Of a stretch of 64,000 nucleotides of DNA, positions 22,651 to 33,945 are shown piece after piece. Position 1 is the stretch's first letter. Each line of letters begins with the position of its first letter. Made by a program: the position numbers and the translations under genes. The stretch is from the human T2T-CHM13v2.0 reference genome, Homo sapiens: the NCBI RefSeq assembly GCF_009914755.1, contig NC_060929.1. The stretch is one strand, 5' to 3'. The notes under the pieces were generated by a model, which made no database searches, was not told the DNA's origin, and saw only the letters and a list, made by a program, of their open reading frames with translations.

Positions 22651-25600
22651 GCACTACTCAGTTCATAGATGTTCTTAATAGCGGAACGTCTTTCACTCAC
22701 TATCACTTGGGAAATTGAAATCTGAATTCGGATTACCCCTGTGCCTTCCCTCAAGTCAATTTCTTCAACTTCTAAATGTATTTTTTATGTATTAACATAT
22801 TTCTAGTAAACCAGATTTAAGCCAAATAAGAATGTTCACAATTTAAGGAAAACATTTTAGGAAAAGTAGGATTTTGTTTTCTGCCTTCAACAATATTATA
22901 ATATTTCTAGATCGTTAGATACACTGTGTCTTTATGATAAATTATGGTCACTTAAAAAATGAAACAAACTTGGAATTTGAGGCAACCAGTGCTGTTATCT
23001 GAACAACTGATACATTAACTTATGTGTAGTTTACATTTGCTTCTCAAACATGATTCATAGTCTTTCATCAGGAAATGGAGTACCTTTCTTCTAAGCTAAC
23101 ATATTCTATTAGTATAATGAATTATCACTTTTATCTAGGGTATCAGCAGAAATATGACTCATTAATTATATGAACAAGTAACCACTTGCATAAATAATGG
23201 AGAAATGAAAAACCCAATAGCAGCAGCAACAGCAAAACCCTGTATTTTACTTAAACTGTTTTATTAAGCAATACCTATAAAGGTATTTTTTTTTCAAATA
23301 CATATGCTAAGACAATGAAATCAGGGGATTCAGAGAATTGAGACAGAAAATAATATTTTTAAATTTTTAAAATTATTTTGATGATATTTTTTCCAATTTG
23401 CTGTTAATATTTTGGTAGCCATTTACATTGAATAATAGTTCTTTGTATCTTGAATTTTATGTCAATATACTTCTGATTGGAGTCTCATAAAACATCAAAT
23501 GTAGCATAATTTAGCATATGTATACACACTTAAATTCAAAGCAGTACCTAAGGATTCCACCTGCAGAACCTGTTTGCTCCTCATTATTGGCTTACAAAAG
23601 CCTGGTTCAATTGTAATGGATAGGATTAGGCTGTCAGAAGAACACTGCATGGAATATACATACCTTAACGCATTTTGCAAGCATCACTACATTGATAGTC
23701 AATATATACATTACATTTGAGAGCAACAGTTTTTGATAGTAAATCAAAACATAATTTTATAAGTTTCTGAAGTTTTCCCTAGTTTCTTCACATTAAGCCA
23801 GTAGTAAAACCCATTATTGCTTAAAGGTAAGTAAATACAAACCACATCTATGAAAAACATTTTTACTGTTCCAAAACTTCTATTATTTCAATTTCTTTTA
23901 AGTCTGTTTCTTTTCTATTTAAACTTAAATACTGTTATAAACAGTTAATTTAAAAAATACACAATTATAAATTAATAACACAGAAACCATTTGACATTTG
24001 AGTACTTTTCCCTTGGAATTTCAAATTAGTACTTCTTTAGTGCTTAATTTAGTGCATGTATGCTTTACCTAGAGACACAATAACCACACTGAAAGTCATG
24101 AACCATATGTAAGCTTAATGGCAATGAGATATTTAATGTGTCTCATGTGACATACTCTGCAAAATGGTGCTGCATGAATGCCAATACAATGTTGCAAACA
24201 GAAGATCAAATTCACAGACGTTTTACTATAAAATGTCACAATATTTTTTTAAGTGAACTTAAAGATCATTGAAGTCTATAGGAAAAAAAAACTTGCAATG
24301 GAGGAGAACCTTGTTCTTCCAGTACATTAATAGTACTGTGTTTTTTGTTTGTTTGTTTGTTTGTTTTCCAAGATGGTGGATTAGAGGCTTTTAGCAGGCA
24401 TCAGTCACTTGAAAATAGCAAGAGAGTACATAAAACTCTACTTTGTGAGCTTTAATTCAGAAGAAAAAATGGGAATCCACTTGGATCATGAAAGACACCC
24501 CAGATCCTGTGGGGGGAATGACACCAAACAGCCCCATGATGGCGTCTGGCTGATAGAGACTGAAACCCCATGTGCTAGAGAGGCAGTGAGCCTCCTTCTG
24601 TGACTCACCTTTCCACTGGGAGCCTGAGCAACCTAGGCAGACAGAGGACACTTTGTTTCTCCCAAGCTCTGGAGGTAAGGTGGAAGAGGCTTGGCGATGC
24701 TACGAGGGAAAGACACCAGGAAATGCTGCAGATATTTTCCTAGGCCCAGGACTGAAAGCAGTACACCATTTTAAATCTGGGCACACACACATCAGGCACT
24801 CATAGGAGACCCAGCAAAGTGACCATGCAGGCATTTTGGACTCAGGCCGGAGATTGGAGCACCTGCTCTGGAGCTGGGCAGGGGTCTCCATAGCCAGAAC
24901 TGTGGAAAGCACCTCAGCAGTAGGTGCTGGAATTGTGCTCTCCCCATCATAACCCTGGGACAGGAAGAAAACTGCCCTACTTACAGCTCATGGGTGCTGA
25001 GGCTTGAAGCCAGGGCCAGCCAGGCAATTTGGAACTGACATGCATATGACATCGCTGGGTGCTCCAGCCTGCTTCCCTGAAGTCATGGCACACCAGGGCC
25101 TTCTCTGCTTCACTTCTAGGCAGAAATCCAGGCATTTGGAGCACCTGCTTGCCTGAGCCAGCAGCAAGAACCACTCCACCCTTCATGGACACAGATTATA
25201 CTATAACGGGGCTTTCTCTGCTCCATGCTCAGGCAGATCGCCAGGGATCTCCAGGTGACACCTACTCCACTGGATTAGGAGTTTAGGCCACCCCCTATCT
25301 CCATGCAGAATATGAGGCTGAGGAGGTTTCCCAGTTCCATGCCTAGGCACACCTCTGGGCACACTTGGTGACTGCCCACTGGATTCTTCCTGAGCCCTGG
25401 TGCTTGTGCCAGCCATTGGAAGACCTGTATGTGAACTGGCCTGGCTGAGCACTGCTCTTCATGGCCCCACTCCCAGAGCTGAGCAGGGAGCTCAGACCAC
25501 TGCATTCCACGAATCAGCCCATTGCCTGTGGCATCACAGAGATTCTCCCAGTAAACAGGAATCAAGTGTATACCTAGCTGCATAGGCTGCTACTGGCTCT

Positions 25601-26090
25601 TACCTACAAGCACCATTAACTGGCTTGTAGGTCAAACTGAACAGTCCAATATAAAACCTTTTGAAACAAGTGCGTAGGGCTATAGAAGCAAGCCAAAAAG
25701 TCTACACAGCATGCTCACATCTTCTAGGGAAGGGACAAAGAGAAAGGGGTAAAACATAAATATACGTACTTACATAAAGACTATATAAAAATATATGTAT
25801 TTATATCAAAGTATATAAAATATATGTTACATATATTATATTTATATAATATATAATATGTAATGTATTATGCAATGTATATTATATATTCTATAATTAC
25901 ATATTATATGTAATAATATAATATAATATATAATATATACACATATAATTATATAATGCACACATATTACATACAGAAATAAAATACATATAATTATATT
26001 TAAGTTATATATAATATATTATATATTATATAATTATATATTATACATTATATATAATAAATATACTATATATTATAATATGTAACATAT

Positions 26091-26420
26091 ACATATATAA
26101 TAATATAATATATAATATATACATATATAATAATATAATATATAATATATACATATATAATAATATAATATATAATGTATACATATATAATAATATAATA
26201 TATAATGTATACATATATAATAATATAATATATAATGTATACATATATAATAATATAATATATAATGTATACATATATAATAATATAATATATAATGTAT
26301 ACATATATAATAATATAATATATAATATATACATATATAATAATATAATATATAATATATACATATATAATAATATAATATATAATATATACATATATAA
26401 TAATATAATATATAATATAT
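26091..26420. repeat. 30-bp AT-rich minisatellite, 11 full copies
   Basis: Unit acatatataataatataatatataat(a/g)tat; variant order 2A-5G-4A. Confidence 0.97.
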
Positions 26421-26654
26421 ACATATATAATATATACATATATAATAATATAATATATATACATAATTACATATATAAATATAATATATGTAATACATTA
26501 TGATATAAAAATATATATTTTATATACTTTGAAACAAATACGTATATTTTTATATAATTTTAATATAAATGCTTACATTTATGTTTTACCCCTTTCTCTT
26601 TGCACCTTCCCTAGAGGGTGTGAACATGCTGTGTAGACTTTTTGACTTGCTTCT

Positions 26655-26979
26655 TTTTTTTTAAATTTATTTATTATTATTATACTTTAAGTTTTAGGGT
26701 ACATGTGCACAATGTGCAGGTTAGTTACATATGTATACATGTGCCATGCTGGTGCGCTGCACCCACTAACTCGTCATCTAGAATTAGGTATATCTCCCAA
26801 GGCTATTCCTCCCCCCACCCCACAACAGTCCCCAGAGTGTGATGTTCCCCTTCCTGTGTCCATGTGTTCTAATTGTTCAATTCCCACCTATGAGTGAGAA
26901 TATGCGGTGTTTGGTTTTTTGTTCTTGCGATAGTTTACTGAGAATGATGATTTCCAATTTCATCCATGCCCCTACAAAG
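26655..26979 (-). mobile_element. 5'-truncated young L1 (L1PA2/L1PA3) 3' end
   Basis: T tail, tatactttaagttttagggtacatgtgcacaatg, actaactcgtcatct (GAG, not the Ta ACA); TSD CTTGCTTCT at 26646-26654 and 26980-26988. Confidence 0.93.
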
Positions 26980-27605
26980 CTTGCTTCTATAGCCCTACCC
27001 ACTTGTTTCAAAAGGCTTTATATTGGGCTGTGCAGTTTGACCTACAAGCCAGTTAATGGTGCTTGTAGGTAAGAGCCAGTAGCAGCCTGTGCAGCTAGGT
27101 ATACACTTGATTCCTGTTTACTGGGAGAATCTCTGTGATGCCACAGGCAATGGGCTGATTCGTGGAATGCAGTGGTCTGAGCTCCCTGCTCAGCTCTGGG
27201 AGTGGGGCCATGAAGAGCAGTGCTCAGCCAGGCCAGTTCACATACAGGTCTTCCAATGGCTGGCACAAGCACCAGGGCTCAGGAAGAATCCAGTGGGCAG
27301 TCACCAAGTGCCCAGAGGTGTGCCTAGGCATGGAACTGGGAAACCTCCTCAGCCTCATATTCTGCATGGAGATAGGGGGTGGCCTAAACTCCTAATCCAG
27401 TGGAGTAGGTGTCACCTGGAGATCCCTGGAGATCTGCCTGAGCATGGAGCATGGAGCAGAGAAAGCACAATCTGTGTCCATGAAGGGTGGGGTGGTTCTC
27501 GCTGCTGGCTCAGGCAAGCAGGTGCTCCAAATGCCTGGATTTCTGCCTAGAAGTGAAGCAGAGAAGGCCCTGGTGTGCCATGATTTCAGGGTAACAGGCT
27601 GGAGC

Positions 27606-27990
27606 GTATATATTATATAATATATTATATTTTATATAATAAAAACCTTTATAATAAATAAATAAAATACAAATATATAAATAATATATAAATAAAAATT
27701 TATAATAAATGAAATAAATTTTCATACTTTAATTATTAAATAATTGTATTTATTTATATTTAATAATTATTTAGTAATTATTAATTAGTAAACAAAATTA
27801 TTTAATATTTTATTAAATTACTATTAATGATATAATATATTTATATAAATTTTATTAAATTATTACTATAAATTTAATATTTAAAATTATTTAATTTTAA
27901 TATTTTATAATACATAAAATATATGTATTAATATGAATACATTTTATAAACATATTTATATAGAAATGTATATATAGCTTTCTTCGCATA
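27606..27990. repeat. AT-rich low-complexity tract
   Basis: Almost exclusively A/T, starting exactly at the outer end of the right arm. Confidence 0.9.
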
Positions 27991-29220
27991 TAAACATGAA
28001 ACGAAAGAAAAAGAAGAATATTCCACCAGCAATACAATAATTACAAAATTTAGGATTGTCAAGGTCTCCATATGAGAAGGTATCAGCGCAAGAATTCTGG
28101 CACCATGAAAAATCTGAATGCAGTGACCCTACGAAAGGATCACATTAGCTCTCCAGCAATAGTCCCTAAAGTAAAATGAAAACTCAGAAATAACGTATAA
28201 AGAATTCAAAGCATAGATTTCGAGAAAGCTCAATGAGATCCAAGTCAAAGTTGAAAATCAACACAAAGAAACTTCTAAAACAATCCAGGAAGTGCAGAAG
28301 GATATAAACATCTTAAAAACAAATCAATTAGTGCTTTTGGAATTGAAAAATTCAATTGAATAATTTCAAAGTAAAATTGAAAACTTTTTTAACAAATTGA
28401 ATCAAACAGAAGAAAAAATTTTAGAGCTTAAAGACTGGTCTTTTGAACTAACCTGGACAGACAAAAGTAAAGAAAAAAAGAATTCTAAACAAATGAACAA
28501 AGTCTTTGAGAAATATGAGACTATATACAGCAGAAAAACACATGAATTATTGGCATTCCTAAATAAAAAGGTGAAAAAACAACTAATCTGGAAAACATAT
28601 TTGAGAGGGAATAATTGAAGGAAACTTCCCTAATTTTGCTAGAGTGTTGGATATCTAGATACAAGAAATCCAGAGAATGCATTTGAAATACTATGCCAAA
28701 TGAACACTGCCAAGGCAGATAGTCACCAAACTGTCCAAGGTAAATGGTAAAGAAAAAATTTTAAAGGCAATTGGACAAAAAGGTCAGATCATATACAAAG
28801 AGAAACCTATTAGGCTAACAGTGAACTTCTCAGCAGAAACCTTAAAATCCAGAAAAGACTGGGGGGCTATTTTCAGAATTCTTAAAGAAAAAAAAGAATT
28901 CCAATCAAAAAGTTTATACTCTGCCAAAGTCAGCTTCATAAGTGAAAGAGAAGTAAAAGTTTTTCCAGACAAACAACAAAGTGATAAAGGAATTTGTTAC
29001 TACTACACTAGCCTTACAAGAGATTATTAAAGGAGTTCTAAACATAAAAATAAAAGAACAACCTGCTAACGCAAAACACACTTAAGTACATAGCCTGAAG
29101 ACCCTATAAGCAACCATACAATACAAACTACAAAGCAACTGGCTAACAGCCTCATGATAGGGTCAAAACTTCACATATCGATATTAATCTTTAATGTAAA
29201 TGGCCCCAATGACCCACTTA

Positions 29221-29566
<346 letters not shown>

Positions 29567-31615
29567 AAGACACCTCCTTCTGTTGTTTTTAGGAGACCCA
29601 CCACACATGTCATAACATCCATAGGCTCAAAATAAAGGGTTGGAGAAAGATCAACCATGCAAACAGACAATAAAAGAGAGCAGGGATAGCTCTTTTTATA
29701 TCAGATAAACAGACATTGAACAAACGCCAGTAGAAAAGAAAAAACAACAACAAAGAAGGACGTTATGAAATACTAAAGGGTTCAATTCAACAAGAAGACT
29801 TAAGTATTCTAATATATATGCATTCAACATTGGAATACTCAGATTCATAAAGTGAGTACTTCTAGACCCACAAAAAGACTTAGACTGCTGTACTATAATA
29901 GTGAAGGATATGAATACCCCACTGACAGCATTAGCAGATACCAAGGCAGAAAACTACCAAAGAAATTCTGGACTTAAACTTGATGCTTGGCCAATTGGAC
30001 CAAATAGACATCTACAGAATACTCCACTCATCAAACACAAAATATGCATTCTCCTCATCTGCATACAGGACATACTCCAAGATCAACTACATGCTCTGTC
30101 ATAAAACAAGTCTCAAGAAATTAAAAAAAAAATCCAAATCATACCAACCATAGTCTTGGACCCAGTGCACTAAAAATAAAAATCAATACCAAGAAGATCT
30201 CTCAAAACCATGAAATTACATGCAAATTAAACAAATTGTTCCTCAATGACTTTTGAGTAAACAATGAAATTAAGGCAAAAATAAAAAAAATTGAAATAAA
30301 TGCAAACAGAAACACAACATATTAATATCCCAAGGATGCAGCAAAAGCAATGTTAAGAGAAAAGTTTATAGCACTCCAGGTCAACCTCAAAAAGCTAGGA
30401 AGATCTCAAATTAATGACCTAACATCACATCTTGAGGAACTAGAAAAACAAGAGCAAACTAAACCCAAAGCTAACAGAAGAAAAGAAATAACTAAAATCA
30501 CACGGGGGCTGAACAAAAATGAAACCCCAAAATTTATGCAAAAACCCCCCAAAACCACATGTTGGTTATTTGAAAGGATAAAGAAAATCAGTTGATCACT
30601 AGCTAGATTAACAACAAAAAAGAACATCCAAATAAGCACAATCAGAGACAACAAATGTGGCGTTACCACTGATCCCAAGGAAAAACAAAAGATTCTCAGA
30701 GACTATTATGAACACTTCCGCACATGAAAATTAGAAAATCTAGAGAAAATGGAAATCACAATCTCCCAAAATTGAATCAGGAAGAAATTGAAACACTGAA
30801 CAGACCAATATCAATTTCTGAAATTTTATCCATAATCAAAGTCTATAAACCAAAAAAGCCCTAGTCTAAATGGATTATTCACAGCTGAATTCTACCATAC
30901 ATACAAAGAAGAGCCAGTACAAATTCTGTTGAAACTATTCCAAAAATTGAGAAAGCAAAATTCCTCTCTAACTCATTCTATGAAACCAGCATCAACCTGA
31001 AACTAAAACCTGGCAAAGACACAACAACAAAAAATAAAATTGCAAGCCAATATCCCTGATGAATATAGACATGAAAATCCTCAATAAAAAAAAAAAACAC
31101 GAAAAGAAAGAAAAAGAAAAACTAGAAAAACGAATTCAACAGCATATCAAAAAAAGTTAATTCATTGTTCTTTTTTGGGCTGTCACATTGGTTCAGCATA
31201 TACAAATTAATAAATGTGATTAATCACATGAACAGAATTTTAAAAAAAATCATATGATCATTTCAATAGATGCAAAAGAAACTTTTAATAAAATCCAACA
31301 TCTCTTCATTATAAAAACCTTCAAGAAACTAGCCACTGAAGGAACATTTCTCAAAATAATAAGGACCATGTATGACAGACTCACAACAAACATCATACTG
31401 AATGGACAAAAACTGGAAACATTTCTGTATAAGAACTAGAATTAGACAAAGATGCCCACTCTCACCACTCCTAATCAGCATAATACTGAAAGCACTAACC
31501 AGAGCAACCAGGCAAGAGAAAAATATAAAAGGCATCCTTAGAGAAAAGATCTCTGACTGTCTCTCTTCACAGACAATACGATTCTCCACCTAGAGAACTC
31601 TAATGACTCCACCCG

Positions 31616-33945
31616 TAGGAAAAAAAAAATAGGAGTTACAAACCAAAAAATACAAATACTGACTATTGTATGTTACTTTAATGAGTATGCTTTATTTCTT
31701 CATTTGGCTTCAAATTACTGCTTAGTGTCATTTTATTTCCACCTCAAATTTTTTTTTTTTTTTTTTAGCATTTCTTGTATGGCAGGTTTAATAGTGATAA
31801 ACTTCCTTAACTCTTGTTTATCTAAGAATGTCTACATCTCTCTTCATTTTTGAAGAAAAAATTGTCAGATATCAAATTTTTGGCTCACTGTTCTTTGTTT
31901 TCAGCACTTTAAGAAAAATATCCCACTTCATGGTTTGATGAGAAATTTGTTGTTAATAATATTGAGGCTCCTTTATACATAAGAAGTCATTTTTTTTCTT
32001 ATTGCTTTTGAGATTATCTTGTTTTGTCTTTTGACAGTTTTACAATAAGTCTCAGTATACATCTCCTTGAATTTAGCCTACTTGCGTTCATTGAACTTCT
32101 TGGATAGGTAGATGCATACATTTCATCAGATTTGGGAAGTTTTTAGCCATTACGTTTTCAAATATTCCCTCTCACACTTTTTCTGGGGCCCCTACAACAC
32201 ATATGTTGATACACTTGATGGTGTGTTATAGGTCTCTTATTCTCTATTTATTTTTTGTTTGTTTATGCTTTTCAGACTGGTTAATTTCAATTGTCTTGTC
32301 TTCAAATTTACTAATTCTTCTGCCTGTTAAAACGTGCTGTTGGACATCTCTAGTGATTTTTTTCATGTATCTATCTTGTTTTTCAGCTTGATTACTTTCT
32401 AAAATTTATCTATTTGTGGATATTCTTTATTTGTTAATGCATCATTCTCTTGGTTTTCTTTAGGTCTTTTTCCATGGATTCCTTTAGGTTTTTGAGAAAA
32501 TATAAGATAGTTGATTTAAACTTTTTCTTTTAAATACAATGTGTAGGCTTCTTCAGAGAAATAGTTTCTGTCAATTTCTTTTTGTAAATGGGCAATATTT
32601 TCCTAGTTTTTCATAATGCTTTAAAATTATTTATTAAAAATAGATATTATGAATATTAAAATATAACTCTGGAAATTAGATGTCTCCACATCTCTGGTGA
32701 TTGCTGTAATTTCTTTATAAGGGGTGTAATCGTCTCTGTTCTCTTTTCTCTGTTGTTTCCTCAGAGTGATCCTATGTCCTCATGGAAATTTTCTAAATCC
32801 CTGGAGCCAAAACAACAACAACAAAAACCTCTCTTTGTGTTTGCAATCTAGCTCTTAACTATTTATGGCACATCTTTAATGCTTAGACAGGCCTACTGTA
32901 ACTGCACATTTGTCTTCATCTCCTGTTTATATGGAGCTCAGCAATGAGCTAGAGGTGCCAGACTAGGTTTACTCTGAATTTGTGTCTGCGAGTTATATTC
33001 TGGATCTGCCAGTACACGAAGTATCTCTTCTAAGCCCTCGTTTCCTTATTATCTTTCTCCTTAGCATACTTTTCCAGGATTTTCTGTCTGTTTTCCCCCT
33101 GCCATGCCCACCATCTCTTGTCCTAGGTGACTACAGGTAGTATATGTCTTTAAATCCTATCAACAAATCTGTTCAGGAATCTACTGCAGACTCTTGGAAA
33201 GAAAATAAAGATAAGCCTCTGTGCTGATTCCTCTGAAATTACCAAACCGATAAAAATGTGAAACCTATTTTTTTTCCTCGTTTTTTTTTTTTTTTTTTTT
33301 TTTCTTGAGACAGGGTCCAACTCCCATTGCCCAGGCTAGAGTACAGTGGCATGATCTTGATTCATTGCAACCTCGAATTGCCAGGATCAAACAATCCTCC
33401 CGTCTTAGCCTCCTCAGTAGCTGGAATGACAGTCATACACCACCACTCCTGGATAGTGTTTTGTATTTTTAGTAGAGACAGGGTTTTGCCATGTTTTCTG
33501 GGCTGGTCACAAACTCCTGGGCTCAACGTATCCACCTGCCTAGGCCTCCCAAAGTGCTGGGATTACAGGGGTGAGCCACCATATCCTGCCTAAAATGTAA
33601 ATTTTGGGGGAACAAAGTTTACATTGCACCCTCCACTCCCCACCCCCACCCTCCAACCCCAAGGCACCAGCAGGCTGCACCAGAAACACAGACTACCATT
33701 TCCACCACTGATGCTAAGCTGGCGAATAGGGGTGGGCAGATGGGTAGGCAAAAAGTCACAATGCTTTTTTAACTAAAATTATAGCAGACTTTATCTTCAT
33801 TTATCACTATCTGGTTGCTTTAAGGTTTTCCTTTTTTCCAGAGTCCCAAAAGAACTGATTAACTGTTTTCCAGCCTAATAGTTGCTTAAATTAGATGGAG
33901 TGCAGATGTTGGTTCTTGGAGCTTTCTATTTTGCCATTTTCTTTG
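31616..33945 (-). mobile_element. L1MB/L1MC-type 5' portion (5'UTR, ORF1, inter-ORF)
   Basis: ggagttacaaaccaaaaa, tagcatttcttgtatggcagg and tttgggaagtttttagccatt motifs; reverse strand starts gaaaatggcaaaatagaaagctc. Confidence 0.75.
33281..33590 (-). mobile_element. AluJ
   Basis: Poly-T, gagacagggtc, aactcctgggctcaa, cccaaagtgctgggattacagg. Confidence 0.92.

What the first reader, a model, noticed from the sequence alone, without database searches (positions are those of the whole stretch)
25061..27605. 2.5-kb quasi-palindrome built from an inverted duplication of an L1 5'UTR
Seen: ~790 bp (25061-~25848) recurs as its reverse complement at ~26472-27605 (plus one insertion), around a ~620-bp almost pure A/T spacer. 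The host L1 then resumes in the original orientation at ~28000. This is a duplication, not the single-copy 5' inversion produced by twin priming. Inference: a replication template-switch or fold-back event seeded at an AT tract just upstream of ORF1. By analogy with palindromic AT-rich repeats it may form hairpins and be fragile.
Basis: partly seen in the sequence, partly recalled or inferred. Interest (0 to 1): 0.8.

Follow-up and report, generated by a model that had tools for sequence, protein, structure and literature searches.

The report
Old inverted duplication inside an L1
About 800 bases of an ancient L1 element's 5'UTR were copied backwards into an A/T-rich tract just before its first gene several million years ago, leaving a real but decaying hairpin-shaped repeat of a well-known kind.

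Summary
Left arm 25061-25864 recurs as its reverse complement at 26466-27605, around an A/T-rich centre.

- **Not retrotransposition.** The arms differ at 12 of 620 aligned sites in their outer part. Neither arm is more than 75% identical to any other copy of this L1 family in the genome. The arms share 69 changes away from the family majority, against 7 private changes each. Twin priming and a second L1 insertion are therefore excluded.
- **Not a family feature.** All 8 family copies examined run straight from 5'UTR to ORF1.
- **Not an assembly artefact.** The arms have diverged. One arm carries a 5'-truncated L1PA 3' end with a poly-A tail and a 10-bp target-site duplication, and the empty site is intact in the other arm.
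- **Nothing lost.** The host L1 stops at about 25759 and resumes at about 28000, the ORF1 start.
- **Mechanism (inferred).** A fold-back or reverse template switch in the A/T tract, with an apparent age of about 6-15 Myr.
- **Not a PATRR.** The arms are 45-57% GC, the spacer is about 600 bp and one arm has a 334-bp bulge. Fragility is not supported.

It is an ordinary new example of a known kind.

The parts
24360..25759 (+). 5'UTR of the host L1, an old full-length element. A subfamily name of L1PB/L1MA type is my inference; no RepeatMasker run was possible.
   Evidence: Eight family copies align from 24354-24379 onwards at 72-75% identity, and up to 25697-25759. Other genomic copies are 71-75% identical.
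25061..25864 (+). Left arm, in the original orientation. It holds the last ~700 bp of the L1 5'UTR plus ~100 bp of the adjoining A/T-rich tract.
   Evidence: It contains the intact empty site (25684-25693) of the L1PA insertion seen in the other arm.
25865..26465 (.). A/T-rich centre or spacer (5-11% GC). Most of it is a direct 30-bp tandem array (25918-26517, ~20 units). Eleven units at 26085-26414 are identical or differ at one site.
   Evidence: The wider A/T tract that includes it (25761-26577) folds only modestly better than shuffles: -125 vs -108 kcal/mol, z -4.5.
26466..26644 (-). Right arm, inner part, the inverted copy of 25694-25864. It is much more diverged, with 16 mismatches in the 131 sites aligned without gaps.
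26645..26978 (-). A 5'-truncated L1PA 3' end. The body is 26664-26978 (315 bp) and the poly-A shows as T9 at 26655-26663. One copy of the ~10-bp target-site duplication lies at 26645-26654, and the other at 26979-26988 belongs to the arm.
   Evidence: Sequence read. There are 1486 first-look candidates in the genome, and the 39 scored places other than the locus itself are 94-96% identical. It has 4 private substitutions in 311 sites against the majority of the 20 best hits.
26979..27605 (-). Right arm, outer part, the inverted copy of 25061-25693.
   Evidence: 12 mismatches in 620 sites. Indels: an 11-bp stretch present only in the left arm (25198-25208), a 7-bp tandem duplication only in the right arm (27452-27458) and a 2-bp indel (25360-25361).
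27606..27996 (.). Second A/T-rich tract (7% G+C) between the outer end of the inverted copy and the ORF1 start. I read it as the remainder of the original A/T tract.
   Evidence: Direct similarity to 26020-26133 is marginal: 1 of 200 shuffles scores as high. It matches only generic A/T-rich tracts elsewhere, on both strands, at 68-77%.
27997..31436 (+). Rest of the host L1. ORF1 starts near 27997, and decayed ORF1 and ORF2 remnants follow.
   Evidence: Family homology resumes at 28000-28065. The junction was compared with 8 family copies. Pfam finds PF17490 (E 2.9e-16) and PF02994 (E 2.3e-07) in 28704-29027. A weak RVT_1 hit at 31224-31436 (E 9.8e-05) falls below the curated cut-off.

Best explanation
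An old full-length L1 on the + strand had grown an A/T-rich low-complexity tract at the boundary between its 5'UTR and ORF1. Long after the L1 inserted, at roughly 9% of its age before present (about 6-15 Myr at face value), one DNA-synthesis error copied the preceding ~800 bases backwards. The likely path is as follows:
1. A growing strand that had reached the A/T tract folded back, or switched to the opposite strand.
2. It copied back through the A/T tract and the last ~700 bp of the 5'UTR as far as 25061.
3. It then returned to the original template in the A/T tract and went on into ORF1.

The product is A - B - AT - B(inverted) - AT - ORF1 with no L1 sequence lost.

The palindrome has decayed since then. 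A short L1PA 3' end retrotransposed into the right arm. Three small indels and 12 substitutions accumulated in the outer arms. A 30-bp A/T minisatellite expanded very recently in the centre and pushed the arms further apart.

What is shown: the anatomy, the post-insertional local origin, the absence of sequence loss, and the order duplication then L1PA insertion. What is inferred: the fold-back or template-switch mechanism, the dates, and that the centre was once shorter or more symmetric. I see no evidence of a function. It is a neutral structural fossil.
For: 1. The arms are each other's closest relatives by far. They are 96-100% alike, against at most 74% for the other 38 scored places in the genome.
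2. Of 527 columns that the family could polarise, 69 carry a change shared by both arms. Seven are private to the left arm, 7 to the right, and 2 differ three ways. The copy was therefore made from the already decayed resident L1.
3. All 8 family copies (L003-L010) are collinear from 5'UTR to ORF1 with no inverted block. In one search this is the only locus with opposite-strand matches side by side.
4. Family homology stops at 25697-25759 and resumes at 28000-28065. In the seven copies whose homology resumes by 28008, the matching points lie 14-105 bp apart. The junction alignment places the break in the A/T-rich patch just before the ORF1 ATG.
5. The symmetry runs from the GC-normal arms into the A/T tract. 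It is clear to about 25864/26466 and weak to about 26059/26284, scoring 67 against 17.3 +/- 2.6 for shuffles. A fold-back centred in the tract would give this.
6. The L1PA piece has a poly-A tail, a ~10-bp target-site duplication and an intact empty site in the other arm. It therefore inserted after the duplication. Its 4/311 private changes are compatible with the per-lineage arm divergence of 12/1240 (Fisher p = 0.54).
7. Walker et al. (PMC7954356, passages read) describe the four-point reverse template-switch model. They report that such events are enriched at A/T-rich and poly(dA:dT) sequence.
Against: - No ancestral or outgroup sequence was available. The switch points, any microhomology at the acceptor site and the original spacer length are therefore unknown.
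- On the donor side I see no microhomology at the outer junction 27605/27606 (read).
- The present centre is a direct, not mirrored, 30-bp array. A spacer-less fold-back cannot be demonstrated, and a pre-existing unique spacer is equally possible.
- The event (about 800 nt or more) is far longer than the short-range template switches of Walker et al.
- Divergence is very uneven, and a single clean event followed by clock-like decay does not predict that. The inner part has 16/131 mismatches against 12/620 in the outer part (p = 1.5e-6). The non-repetitive inner part 25694-25757 has 5/64 (p = 0.016). The outer edge has 6/147 against 6/473 in the middle (p = 0.04).
Confidence: 0.7

Rival explanations
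1. Same product, different route. One option is a small inversion made by two breaks, one of them staggered by ~800 nt, with fill-in of the overhangs (the isochromatid or staggered-break model, recalled from Drosophila inversion work). Another is a double-strand break in the A/T tract repaired by copying or capturing the neighbouring segment in reverse orientation.
For: The present structure has a ~600-bp centre that is not mirror-symmetric, as a unique inverted spacer would be. No donor-side microhomology is visible at 27605/27606. Hermetz et al. (PMC3907307, passages read) found single-copy spacers of 766 bp to 70 kb in break-initiated fold-back duplications.
Against: Symmetry continues from the arms into the A/T tract. 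At least 330 bp of the centre is a very young expansion, with 11 units differing at one site, so the spacer was shorter at formation. Hermetz-type events end in terminal deletions or dicentric chromosomes. Here the flanking L1 is intact on both sides.
Confidence: 0.18
2. The duplication is much older than the 1.9% arm divergence suggests. On this view the middle of the arms has been homogenised by arm-to-arm gene conversion, as in sex-chromosome palindromes, while the inner part beyond the L1PA insertion has escaped and shows the true age.
For: There is a step in divergence at the L1PA insertion. The 332 sites just outside it have 5 mismatches, and the 131 just inside have 16. The arm edges are more diverged than the middle, 6/147 against 6/473. 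Arm-to-arm conversion is well documented for large X and Y palindromes; I saw only the search listing and abstracts of PMC8600007, PMC8981503 and PMC3723533.
Against: The L1PA insert is not measurably older than the arms (4/311 against 12/1240 lineage-sites, p = 0.54). Eleven of the 16 inner mismatches lie in a 31-bp tandem-repeat, A/T-rich stretch (25758-25824). Three of the other five fall in columns where the family itself is variable. Locally fast or slippage-driven change therefore explains much of the excess. Conversion would also tend to remove or copy the 11-, 7- and 2-bp indels, which persist.
Confidence: 0.2
3. It results from L1 retrotransposition itself. This would be either a twin-priming 5' inversion of the host L1 or a second L1 of the same family inserted in the opposite orientation.
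For: Both arms are L1 5'UTR sequence. 5' inversions are common in L1 insertions (recalled).
Against: The arms share 69 post-insertion changes, against 7 private ones each. Independent copies of this family are only 71-75% alike. The inverted piece ends inside the 5'UTR and A/T tract. It has no 3' end, no poly-A and no target-site duplication of its own. The sequence is duplicated, whereas twin priming gives a single-copy inversion.
Confidence: 0.01
4. It is an assembly artefact, a fold-back chimera in the T2T-CHM13 assembly.
For: Palindromes are hard to assemble, and no second assembly could be examined here.
Against: An artefactual fold-back would have identical arms. These arms differ by 12 substitutions and 3 indels in the outer part. 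They differ by 12% in the inner part. One arm alone holds a bona fide retrotransposon insertion with a target-site duplication. The whole structure is 2.5 kb, far shorter than the long reads used for such assemblies (recalled).
Confidence: 0.02
5. It is at present a PATRR-like fragile or hypervariable hairpin-forming site.
For: As single-stranded DNA the region folds with 611 of 633 outer-arm bases paired arm to arm. The centre is over 90% A/T.
Against: The spacer is about 600 bp and one arm has a 334-bp bulge. The arms are 45-57% GC. The longest pure (TA)n run is 8 nt. The A/T tract folds only slightly better than shuffles. The review PMC7999016 (passages) states that risk rises with arm similarity and with short or absent spacers. 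It also reports that inverted Alus stalled eukaryotic forks with a 12-bp spacer but not a 52-bp one.
Confidence: 0.08

Closest known systems
Reverse-oriented template switching in replication (the four-point model; Walker et al. 2021, PMC7954356, passages read)
   Same: A reverse-complement copy of adjacent sequence is inserted in place. It creates an inverted repeat, lies in A/T-rich sequence and loses no flanking sequence.
   Different: Those events are short-range mutation clusters. This one copies about 800 nt or more, and its ancestral state could not be examined.
Fold-back inverted duplications (Hermetz et al. 2014, PMC3907307, passages read)
   Same: Direct and inverted copies are separated by a short single-copy spacer, and an intrastrand fold-back is the key step.
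   Different: Those are megabase-scale, start from a chromosome break and end with terminal deletions, translocations or rings. This one is 0.8 kb, interstitial, with both flanks intact.
Palindromic AT-rich repeats (PATRR11, PATRR22 and others; review PMC7999016, passages read)
   Same: A/T-rich sequence sits at the centre of symmetry, and the size is several hundred bp.
   Different: PATRRs are near-perfect palindromes with over 90% A/T throughout. Here only the centre is A/T-rich and it is a direct tandem array. The arms are ordinary L1 sequence, with a long spacer and a bulge.
L1 5' inversion by twin priming (recalled; no paper read)
   Same: An inverted block of L1 sequence lies at the 5' side of an L1.
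   Different: Twin priming happens during insertion and gives a single-copy inversion. Here the block is a duplicate made after about 90% of the L1's decay.
Sex-chromosome palindromes kept alike by arm-to-arm gene conversion (PMC8600007, PMC8981503, PMC3723533; search listing and abstracts only)
   Same: Inverted arms surround a spacer, and there may be a conversion signature, with the arm middle more alike than the ends.
   Different: Those arms are many kb long, over 99% identical and carry genes. These are 0.8 kb, 98% or 88% identical and non-coding.

Membership tests
PATRR (palindromic AT-rich repeat) | Near-perfect palindrome with no spacer or a very short one | tested here: not met
   The centre of about 600 bp is a direct 30-bp array. 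The inner arms are 88% alike, the outer arms 98%, and one arm has a 334-bp bulge. Definition taken from PMC7999016.
PATRR (palindromic AT-rich repeat) | More than 90% A/T over the palindrome | tested here: not met
   The arms are 45-57% GC. Only 25800-26600 is about 5-11% GC.
PATRR (palindromic AT-rich repeat) | Documented breakage or translocation at the site | not testable with these tools
   No breakpoint or population data are held. Searches listed nothing on this locus.
L1 twin-priming 5' inversion | The inverted segment is made from the L1 RNA at insertion, so it shares no post-insertion mutations with the rest and is single-copy | tested here: not met
   There are 69 shared derived sites against 7+7 private ones. 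The segment is present twice.
Local inverted duplication by fold-back or reverse template switch | The inverted copy derives from the adjacent resident sequence, not from another locus | tested here: met
   The arms are 96-100% alike, and the next best of 40 scored genomic places is 74%. Shared derived sites are counted.
Local inverted duplication by fold-back or reverse template switch | Flanks collinear with the ancestral sequence, with no loss at the insertion point | tested here: met
   L1 homology stops at about 25759 and resumes at about 28000. In the seven family copies whose homology resumes by 28008, these points lie 14-105 bp apart. Family copies stand in for the unavailable ancestor.
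Local inverted duplication by fold-back or reverse template switch | Inverted microhomology or symmetry at the turn-around point, and microhomology at the return switch | tested here: inconclusive
   Symmetry extends into the A/T tract. The centre has since been overwritten by a young minisatellite. No donor-side microhomology is seen at 27605/27606, and the acceptor side is unknown.
TPRT retrotransposon insertion (the L1PA piece at 26645-26978) | 3' end of the element with a poly-A tail, 5' truncation, a target-site duplication and an intact empty site | tested here: met
   T9 at 26655-26663. The duplication of about 10 bp lies at 26645-26654 and 26979-26988, with one mismatch. The empty site is at 25684-25693 in the left arm. 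The 39 scored genomic places other than the locus itself are 94-96% identical.
Palindrome maintained by arm-to-arm gene conversion | Arm identity higher than expected from the age of the duplication | tested here: inconclusive
   The L1PA insert (4/311) is not significantly older than the arms (12/1240), p = 0.54. Divergence is nevertheless heterogeneous along the arms, with p = 1.5e-6, 0.016 and 0.04.

The most novel reading that the evidence does not exclude
The structure is an autosomal mini-palindrome older than it looks. On this reading the 0.6-kb outer arms are kept about 98% alike by arm-to-arm gene conversion, while the part cut off by the L1PA insertion decays freely to 88%. The very young, still-expanding 30-bp A/T minisatellite at the centre would make it a length-polymorphic site that may form secondary structure. 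That would be a natural example of how a palindrome is born in an A/T tract, is kept alike, and is then disarmed by spacer growth and insertions.
Probability: 0.12. Interest if true: 0.5.

Novelty: new member of a known kind. Interest (0 to 1): 0.22.

Why it matters
It is a cleanly readable fossil of a kilobase-scale inverted duplication that began in an A/T tract. Both flanks are intact, and a built-in time marker (the L1PA insertion) sits in one arm.

Such cases lie between the tens-of-bases template switches catalogued in ape genomes and the megabase fold-back duplications seen in patients. With ape assemblies, this one could show the exact switch points.

Beyond that it has no evident function and lies in a gene desert. 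The nearest annotated genes are lncRNAs 27 kb and 62 kb away, according to the hub's annotation. Nothing in its present anatomy predicts unusual fragility.

Tried and rejected
- **Satellite origin of the A/T tracts.** From memory I suspected that they might belong to a named A/T-rich satellite. Own-genome searches with 27606-27996 and 25740-26010 gave only 68-80% matches to many scattered A/T-rich tracts, usually on both strands of the same place. This is generic low complexity, so I dropped the idea.
- **Structured RNA.** An Rfam scan of 24000-30000 found 0 families at gathering score.
- **Pfam on long read-through frames.** I then scanned 18 stop-free pieces, and 2 gave L1 domains.
- **Khan et al. 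2006.** The paper on L1 subfamily ages could not be fetched by DOI or by a recalled PMC id. Only the 3.1-20.4 Myr span for L1HS-L1PA5, quoted in PMC5237266, was seen. The rate of 0.17%/Myr is recalled.
- **Direct similarity of the two A/T tracts.** This would have marked the return switch point. It is only marginal, with 1 of 200 shuffles scoring as high.
- **Naming the subfamilies.** No RepeatMasker or Dfam is on hand. 'L1PA2-4-like' and 'L1PB/L1MA-like' are inferences from divergence and recall.
- **Print search for this locus or kind.** Searches listed general mechanism and palindrome papers but nothing on this locus. Only the held open-access library was searched.
Full report
**1.

The repeat finder on 23000-30000 returns four collinear inverted blocks:
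- 25061-25202 / 27464-27605 (95%)
- 25219-25362 / 27308-27451 (99%)
- 25362-25693 / 26979-27310 (98%)
- 25684-25828 / 26510-26654 (88%)

A gapped local alignment joins them into one arm pair.
- **Outer arm.** 25061-25693 against 27605-26979 has 12 mismatches in 620 aligned sites. Three indels separate the blocks: 11 bp only in the left arm (25198-25208), a 7-bp tandem duplication only in the right arm (27452-27458) and 2 bp at 25360-25361.
- **Inner arm.** 25694-25824 against 26644-26514 has 16 mismatches in 131 sites.
- **Towards the centre.** Weaker symmetry runs on to about 25864/26466.

The centre is 5-11% GC and the arms are 45-57% GC. A scan of the whole window for inverted repeats of 200 nt or more, with arms within 10 kb, finds only this one.

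**2. What the pieces are**

*Host L1.* A search of the window's own genome with the left arm gives the arm itself (100%) and the inverted arm (96% with gaps). The other 38 scored places reach only 71-75% (40 of 498 first-look candidates were scored, so counts are lower bounds).

Eight of those places (L003-L010) were aligned to 24000-32500. In all eight the family sequence begins at window 24354-24379 and runs collinearly through the 5'UTR to 25697-25759. It resumes at 28000-28065 on the same strand. In the seven copies whose homology resumes by 28008, the two points lie only 14-105 bp apart. In L006 homology resumes only at 28032 and the points lie about 320 bp apart, because that copy has extra sequence at the junction.

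The junction sequences show that the family has an A-rich patch there, followed directly by the ORF1 start. In the window the ORF1 start is near 27997. Pfam finds the L1 ORF1 domains PF17490 (E 2.9e-16) and PF02994 (E 2.3e-07) in 28704-29027. A weak RVT_1 hit, below the curated cut-off, lies at 31224-31436. Of the 18 stop-free pieces scanned, these 2 gave L1 domains.

The host is therefore an old full-length L1 on the + strand. Between its 5'UTR and ORF1 lie 2.2 kb of extra sequence: A/T tract, inverted arm, A/T tract. No L1 sequence is lost. No tool on hand names the subfamily. 'L1PB/L1MA-like' is my inference from the roughly 14% divergence described below.

*The 'one insertion'.* 26645-26978 reads as follows:
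- T9 at 26655-26663
- 315 bp (26664-26978) that is the reverse complement of an L1 3' end
- a roughly 10-bp direct repeat at 26645-26654 and 26979-26988, with one mismatch
- an uninterrupted target at 25684-25693 in the left arm

The genome holds at least 1486 first-look candidates for this piece. The 39 scored places other than the locus itself are 94-96% identical. This is a standard 5'-truncated L1PA insertion made by target-primed reverse transcription. Because it is in one arm only, it came after the duplication.

*The centre.* Tandem Repeats Finder reports a 30-bp unit in about 20 copies over 25918-26517 (84% matches). Eleven consecutive units at 26085-26414 are 5 exact copies of one form, 5 exact copies of a form differing at one base, and 1 unit with one mismatch. 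All units point the same way, so the present centre is not mirror-symmetric. This 330-bp core is far more uniform than the arms, so it must have expanded recently. The spacer was therefore shorter when the palindrome formed.

*The A/T tracts.* Both are generic low complexity. In genome searches they hit many scattered A/T-rich tracts at 68-80%, usually on both strands of the same place. The longest pure (TA)n run is 8 nt.

**3. Retrotransposition, a family feature and an artefact are excluded**

I aligned both arms with the eight family copies and polarised each column by the family majority (at least 70% of 6 or more copies). The 527 informative columns divide as follows:

| Class | Columns |
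|---|---|
| Unchanged | 442 |
| Same derived base in both arms | 69 |
| Derived only in the left arm | 7 |
| Derived only in the right arm | 7 |
| All three differ | 2 |

A further 132 columns were set aside as ambiguous in the family and 35 as lacking family coverage.

The copy was thus made from the resident L1 after it had accumulated about 90% of its present decay: 7/(69+7) is about 9% of its age. This excludes twin priming and a second independent L1.

- **Subfamily arrangement.** The inverted arrangement is not in the subfamily. None of the 8 copies has it, and no other locus has opposite-strand matches side by side.
- **Assembly fold-back.** An artefact would have identical arms. These differ by substitutions, by indels and by a retrotransposon with its own target-site duplication. 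No second assembly or read set could be examined.

**4. Dating**

- **Arms.** The outer arms differ at 1.94% of sites (95% interval 1.0-3.4%), which is 0.97% per lineage.
- **Rates.** At the 0.17%/Myr used for L1 dating (recalled from Khan et al. 2006, which I could not fetch) this is about 6 Myr. At the 0.64 per site per billion years quoted in PMC5237266 (passage) it is about 15 Myr.
- **L1PA insert.** It has 4 private substitutions in 311 sites (1.29%, interval 0.35-3.3%) against the majority of its 20 best genomic matches. This figure is biased low, because the matches were chosen for likeness to the insert. Those matches carry 0.9-3.1% private changes each.
- **Agreement.** The insert figure is compatible with the arm divergence (Fisher p = 0.54). 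It also fits a young L1PA subfamily, since PMC5237266 gives 3.1-20.4 Myr for L1HS to L1PA5.

At face value the duplication and the insertion both date to roughly the great-ape ancestor. This is a clock estimate, not a phylogenetic one.

**5. An unexplained unevenness**

Divergence is not uniform along the arms.

| Comparison | Mismatches | Fisher p |
|---|---|---|
| Inner 131 sites vs outer 620 sites | 16 vs 12 | 1.5e-6 |
| Non-repetitive inner 25694-25757 (64 sites) vs outer 620 sites | 5 vs 12 | 0.016 |
| Outer edge 25061-25218 (147 sites) vs middle (473 sites) | 6 vs 6 | 0.04 |

The step coincides with the L1PA insertion. Two readings remain open.
- **(a) Locally fast change.** Eleven of the 16 inner mismatches lie in a 31-bp tandem-repeat, A/T-rich stretch (25758-25824). 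Three of the other five fall in columns that also vary within the family.
- **(b) Gene conversion.** Arm-to-arm conversion has kept the middle of the arms alike, while the short inner piece, cut off by the insertion, drifts. The duplication would then be older than it looks.

The insert-versus-arm comparison does not require (b), and the three small indels persist. I put (b) at about 0.2.

**6. Mechanism**

The product, A-B-AT-B'-AT-ORF1 with intact flanks, is what the four-point reverse template-switch model gives. In that model synthesis leaves the template, copies nearby sequence in reverse orientation and then returns. Walker et al. find such events enriched at A/T-rich and poly(dA:dT) sequence (PMC7954356, passages).

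Here the turn-around lies in the A/T tract. The symmetry of the arms continues into it, with a score of 67 against 17.3 +/- 2.6 for 200 shuffles, none of which reached it. Reverse copying ended at 25061, and synthesis resumed in the A/T tract at what is now 27606.

Fold-back after a break is the sister model (Hermetz et al., PMC3907307, passages). It also predicts a single-copy spacer, but in patients it ends in terminal deletions, which is not the case here.

Some points cannot be settled without an outgroup sequence:
- I see no donor-side microhomology at 27605/27606.
- The direct similarity between the start of the second A/T tract and 26020-26133, which could mark the return point, is marginal (1 of 200 shuffles).
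- A staggered-break inversion, or break repair with an inverted templated insertion, would give the same present-day sequence.

I am about 95% confident that this is a post-insertional local inverted duplication. I am about 60-65% confident in the replicative fold-back or template-switch route. The overall figure I give is 0.7.

**7. Hairpins and fragility**

Folded as single-stranded DNA, 25001-27665 pairs 611 of 633 outer-arm bases arm to arm. The L1PA piece and the centre fold on themselves. That is expected of any inverted repeat and says little about what happens in a cell. The A/T tract itself folds only modestly better than shuffles (-125 against -108 +/- 3.8 kcal/mol, z -4.5, 20 shuffles).

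According to the review PMC7999016 (passages):
- PATRRs are near-perfect palindromes of several hundred bp with over 90% A/T.
- Instability rises with arm length and similarity and falls with spacer length.
- Inverted Alus stalled eukaryotic forks with a 12-bp spacer but not a 52-bp one.

This locus has GC-normal arms, a spacer of about 600 bp and a 334-bp bulge. It fails two defining PATRR features, and its anatomy predicts low, not high, fragility. An Rfam scan of 24000-30000 found nothing.

**8. Verdict**

Its reading as a duplication rather than twin priming is now supported by tests.

It is a new example of a known kind of event, a local inverted duplication begun in A/T-rich DNA. It is old, fixed in this assembly, decaying and without evident function. 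Searches of the held literature listed nothing on this locus.

Its main value would be as a worked example once ape orthologues are compared.

Noticed in passing
window 26085-26414: Eleven consecutive 30-bp A/T units: 5 exact copies of one form, 5 exact copies of a form differing at one base, and 1 unit with one mismatch. This looks like a very young minisatellite expansion, probably length-polymorphic in people.
   Followed up: partly
window 25694-25824 vs 26514-26644: The inner ends of the arms are 12% diverged against 1.9% for the outer arms, with the step exactly at the L1PA insertion. The cause may be fast local change or escape from gene conversion. It is not resolved.
   Followed up: partly
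window 29259-29559: A ~300-bp GC-richer block interrupts the host L1. In copy L005, family coordinates overlap by 12 bp across it, which suggests a target-site duplication. The block recurs in unrelated loci at 70-84%. It is probably an Alu insertion; that name is recalled, not tested.
   Followed up: no
L004 962-1417, L007 2081-2662, L010 2087-2719 and others, against window 25061-25248: Other copies of this L1 family carry several tandem copies of the 5'UTR unit that matches 25061-25248. The window's copy appears to have only one. The outer end of the inverted arm lies at the start of this unit region.
   Followed up: no
window 24033-25231: The hub's RefSeq annotation places an 'enhancer' over the first ~870 bp of the host L1 5'UTR and the first ~170 bp of the left arm. 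The matching 170 bp in the right arm carries no such annotation.
   Followed up: no
window ~31600-33300: A/T skew flips from strongly positive to negative at about 31600. This suggests that the host L1 is cut or adjoined there by sequence in the opposite orientation. I did not examine it.
   Followed up: no
L032-L034, L037-L038 and many places listed: Long A/T-rich tracts all over the genome match the window's tracts at 68-80% on both strands of the same place. Such tracts are therefore generally quasi-self-complementary.
   Followed up: no
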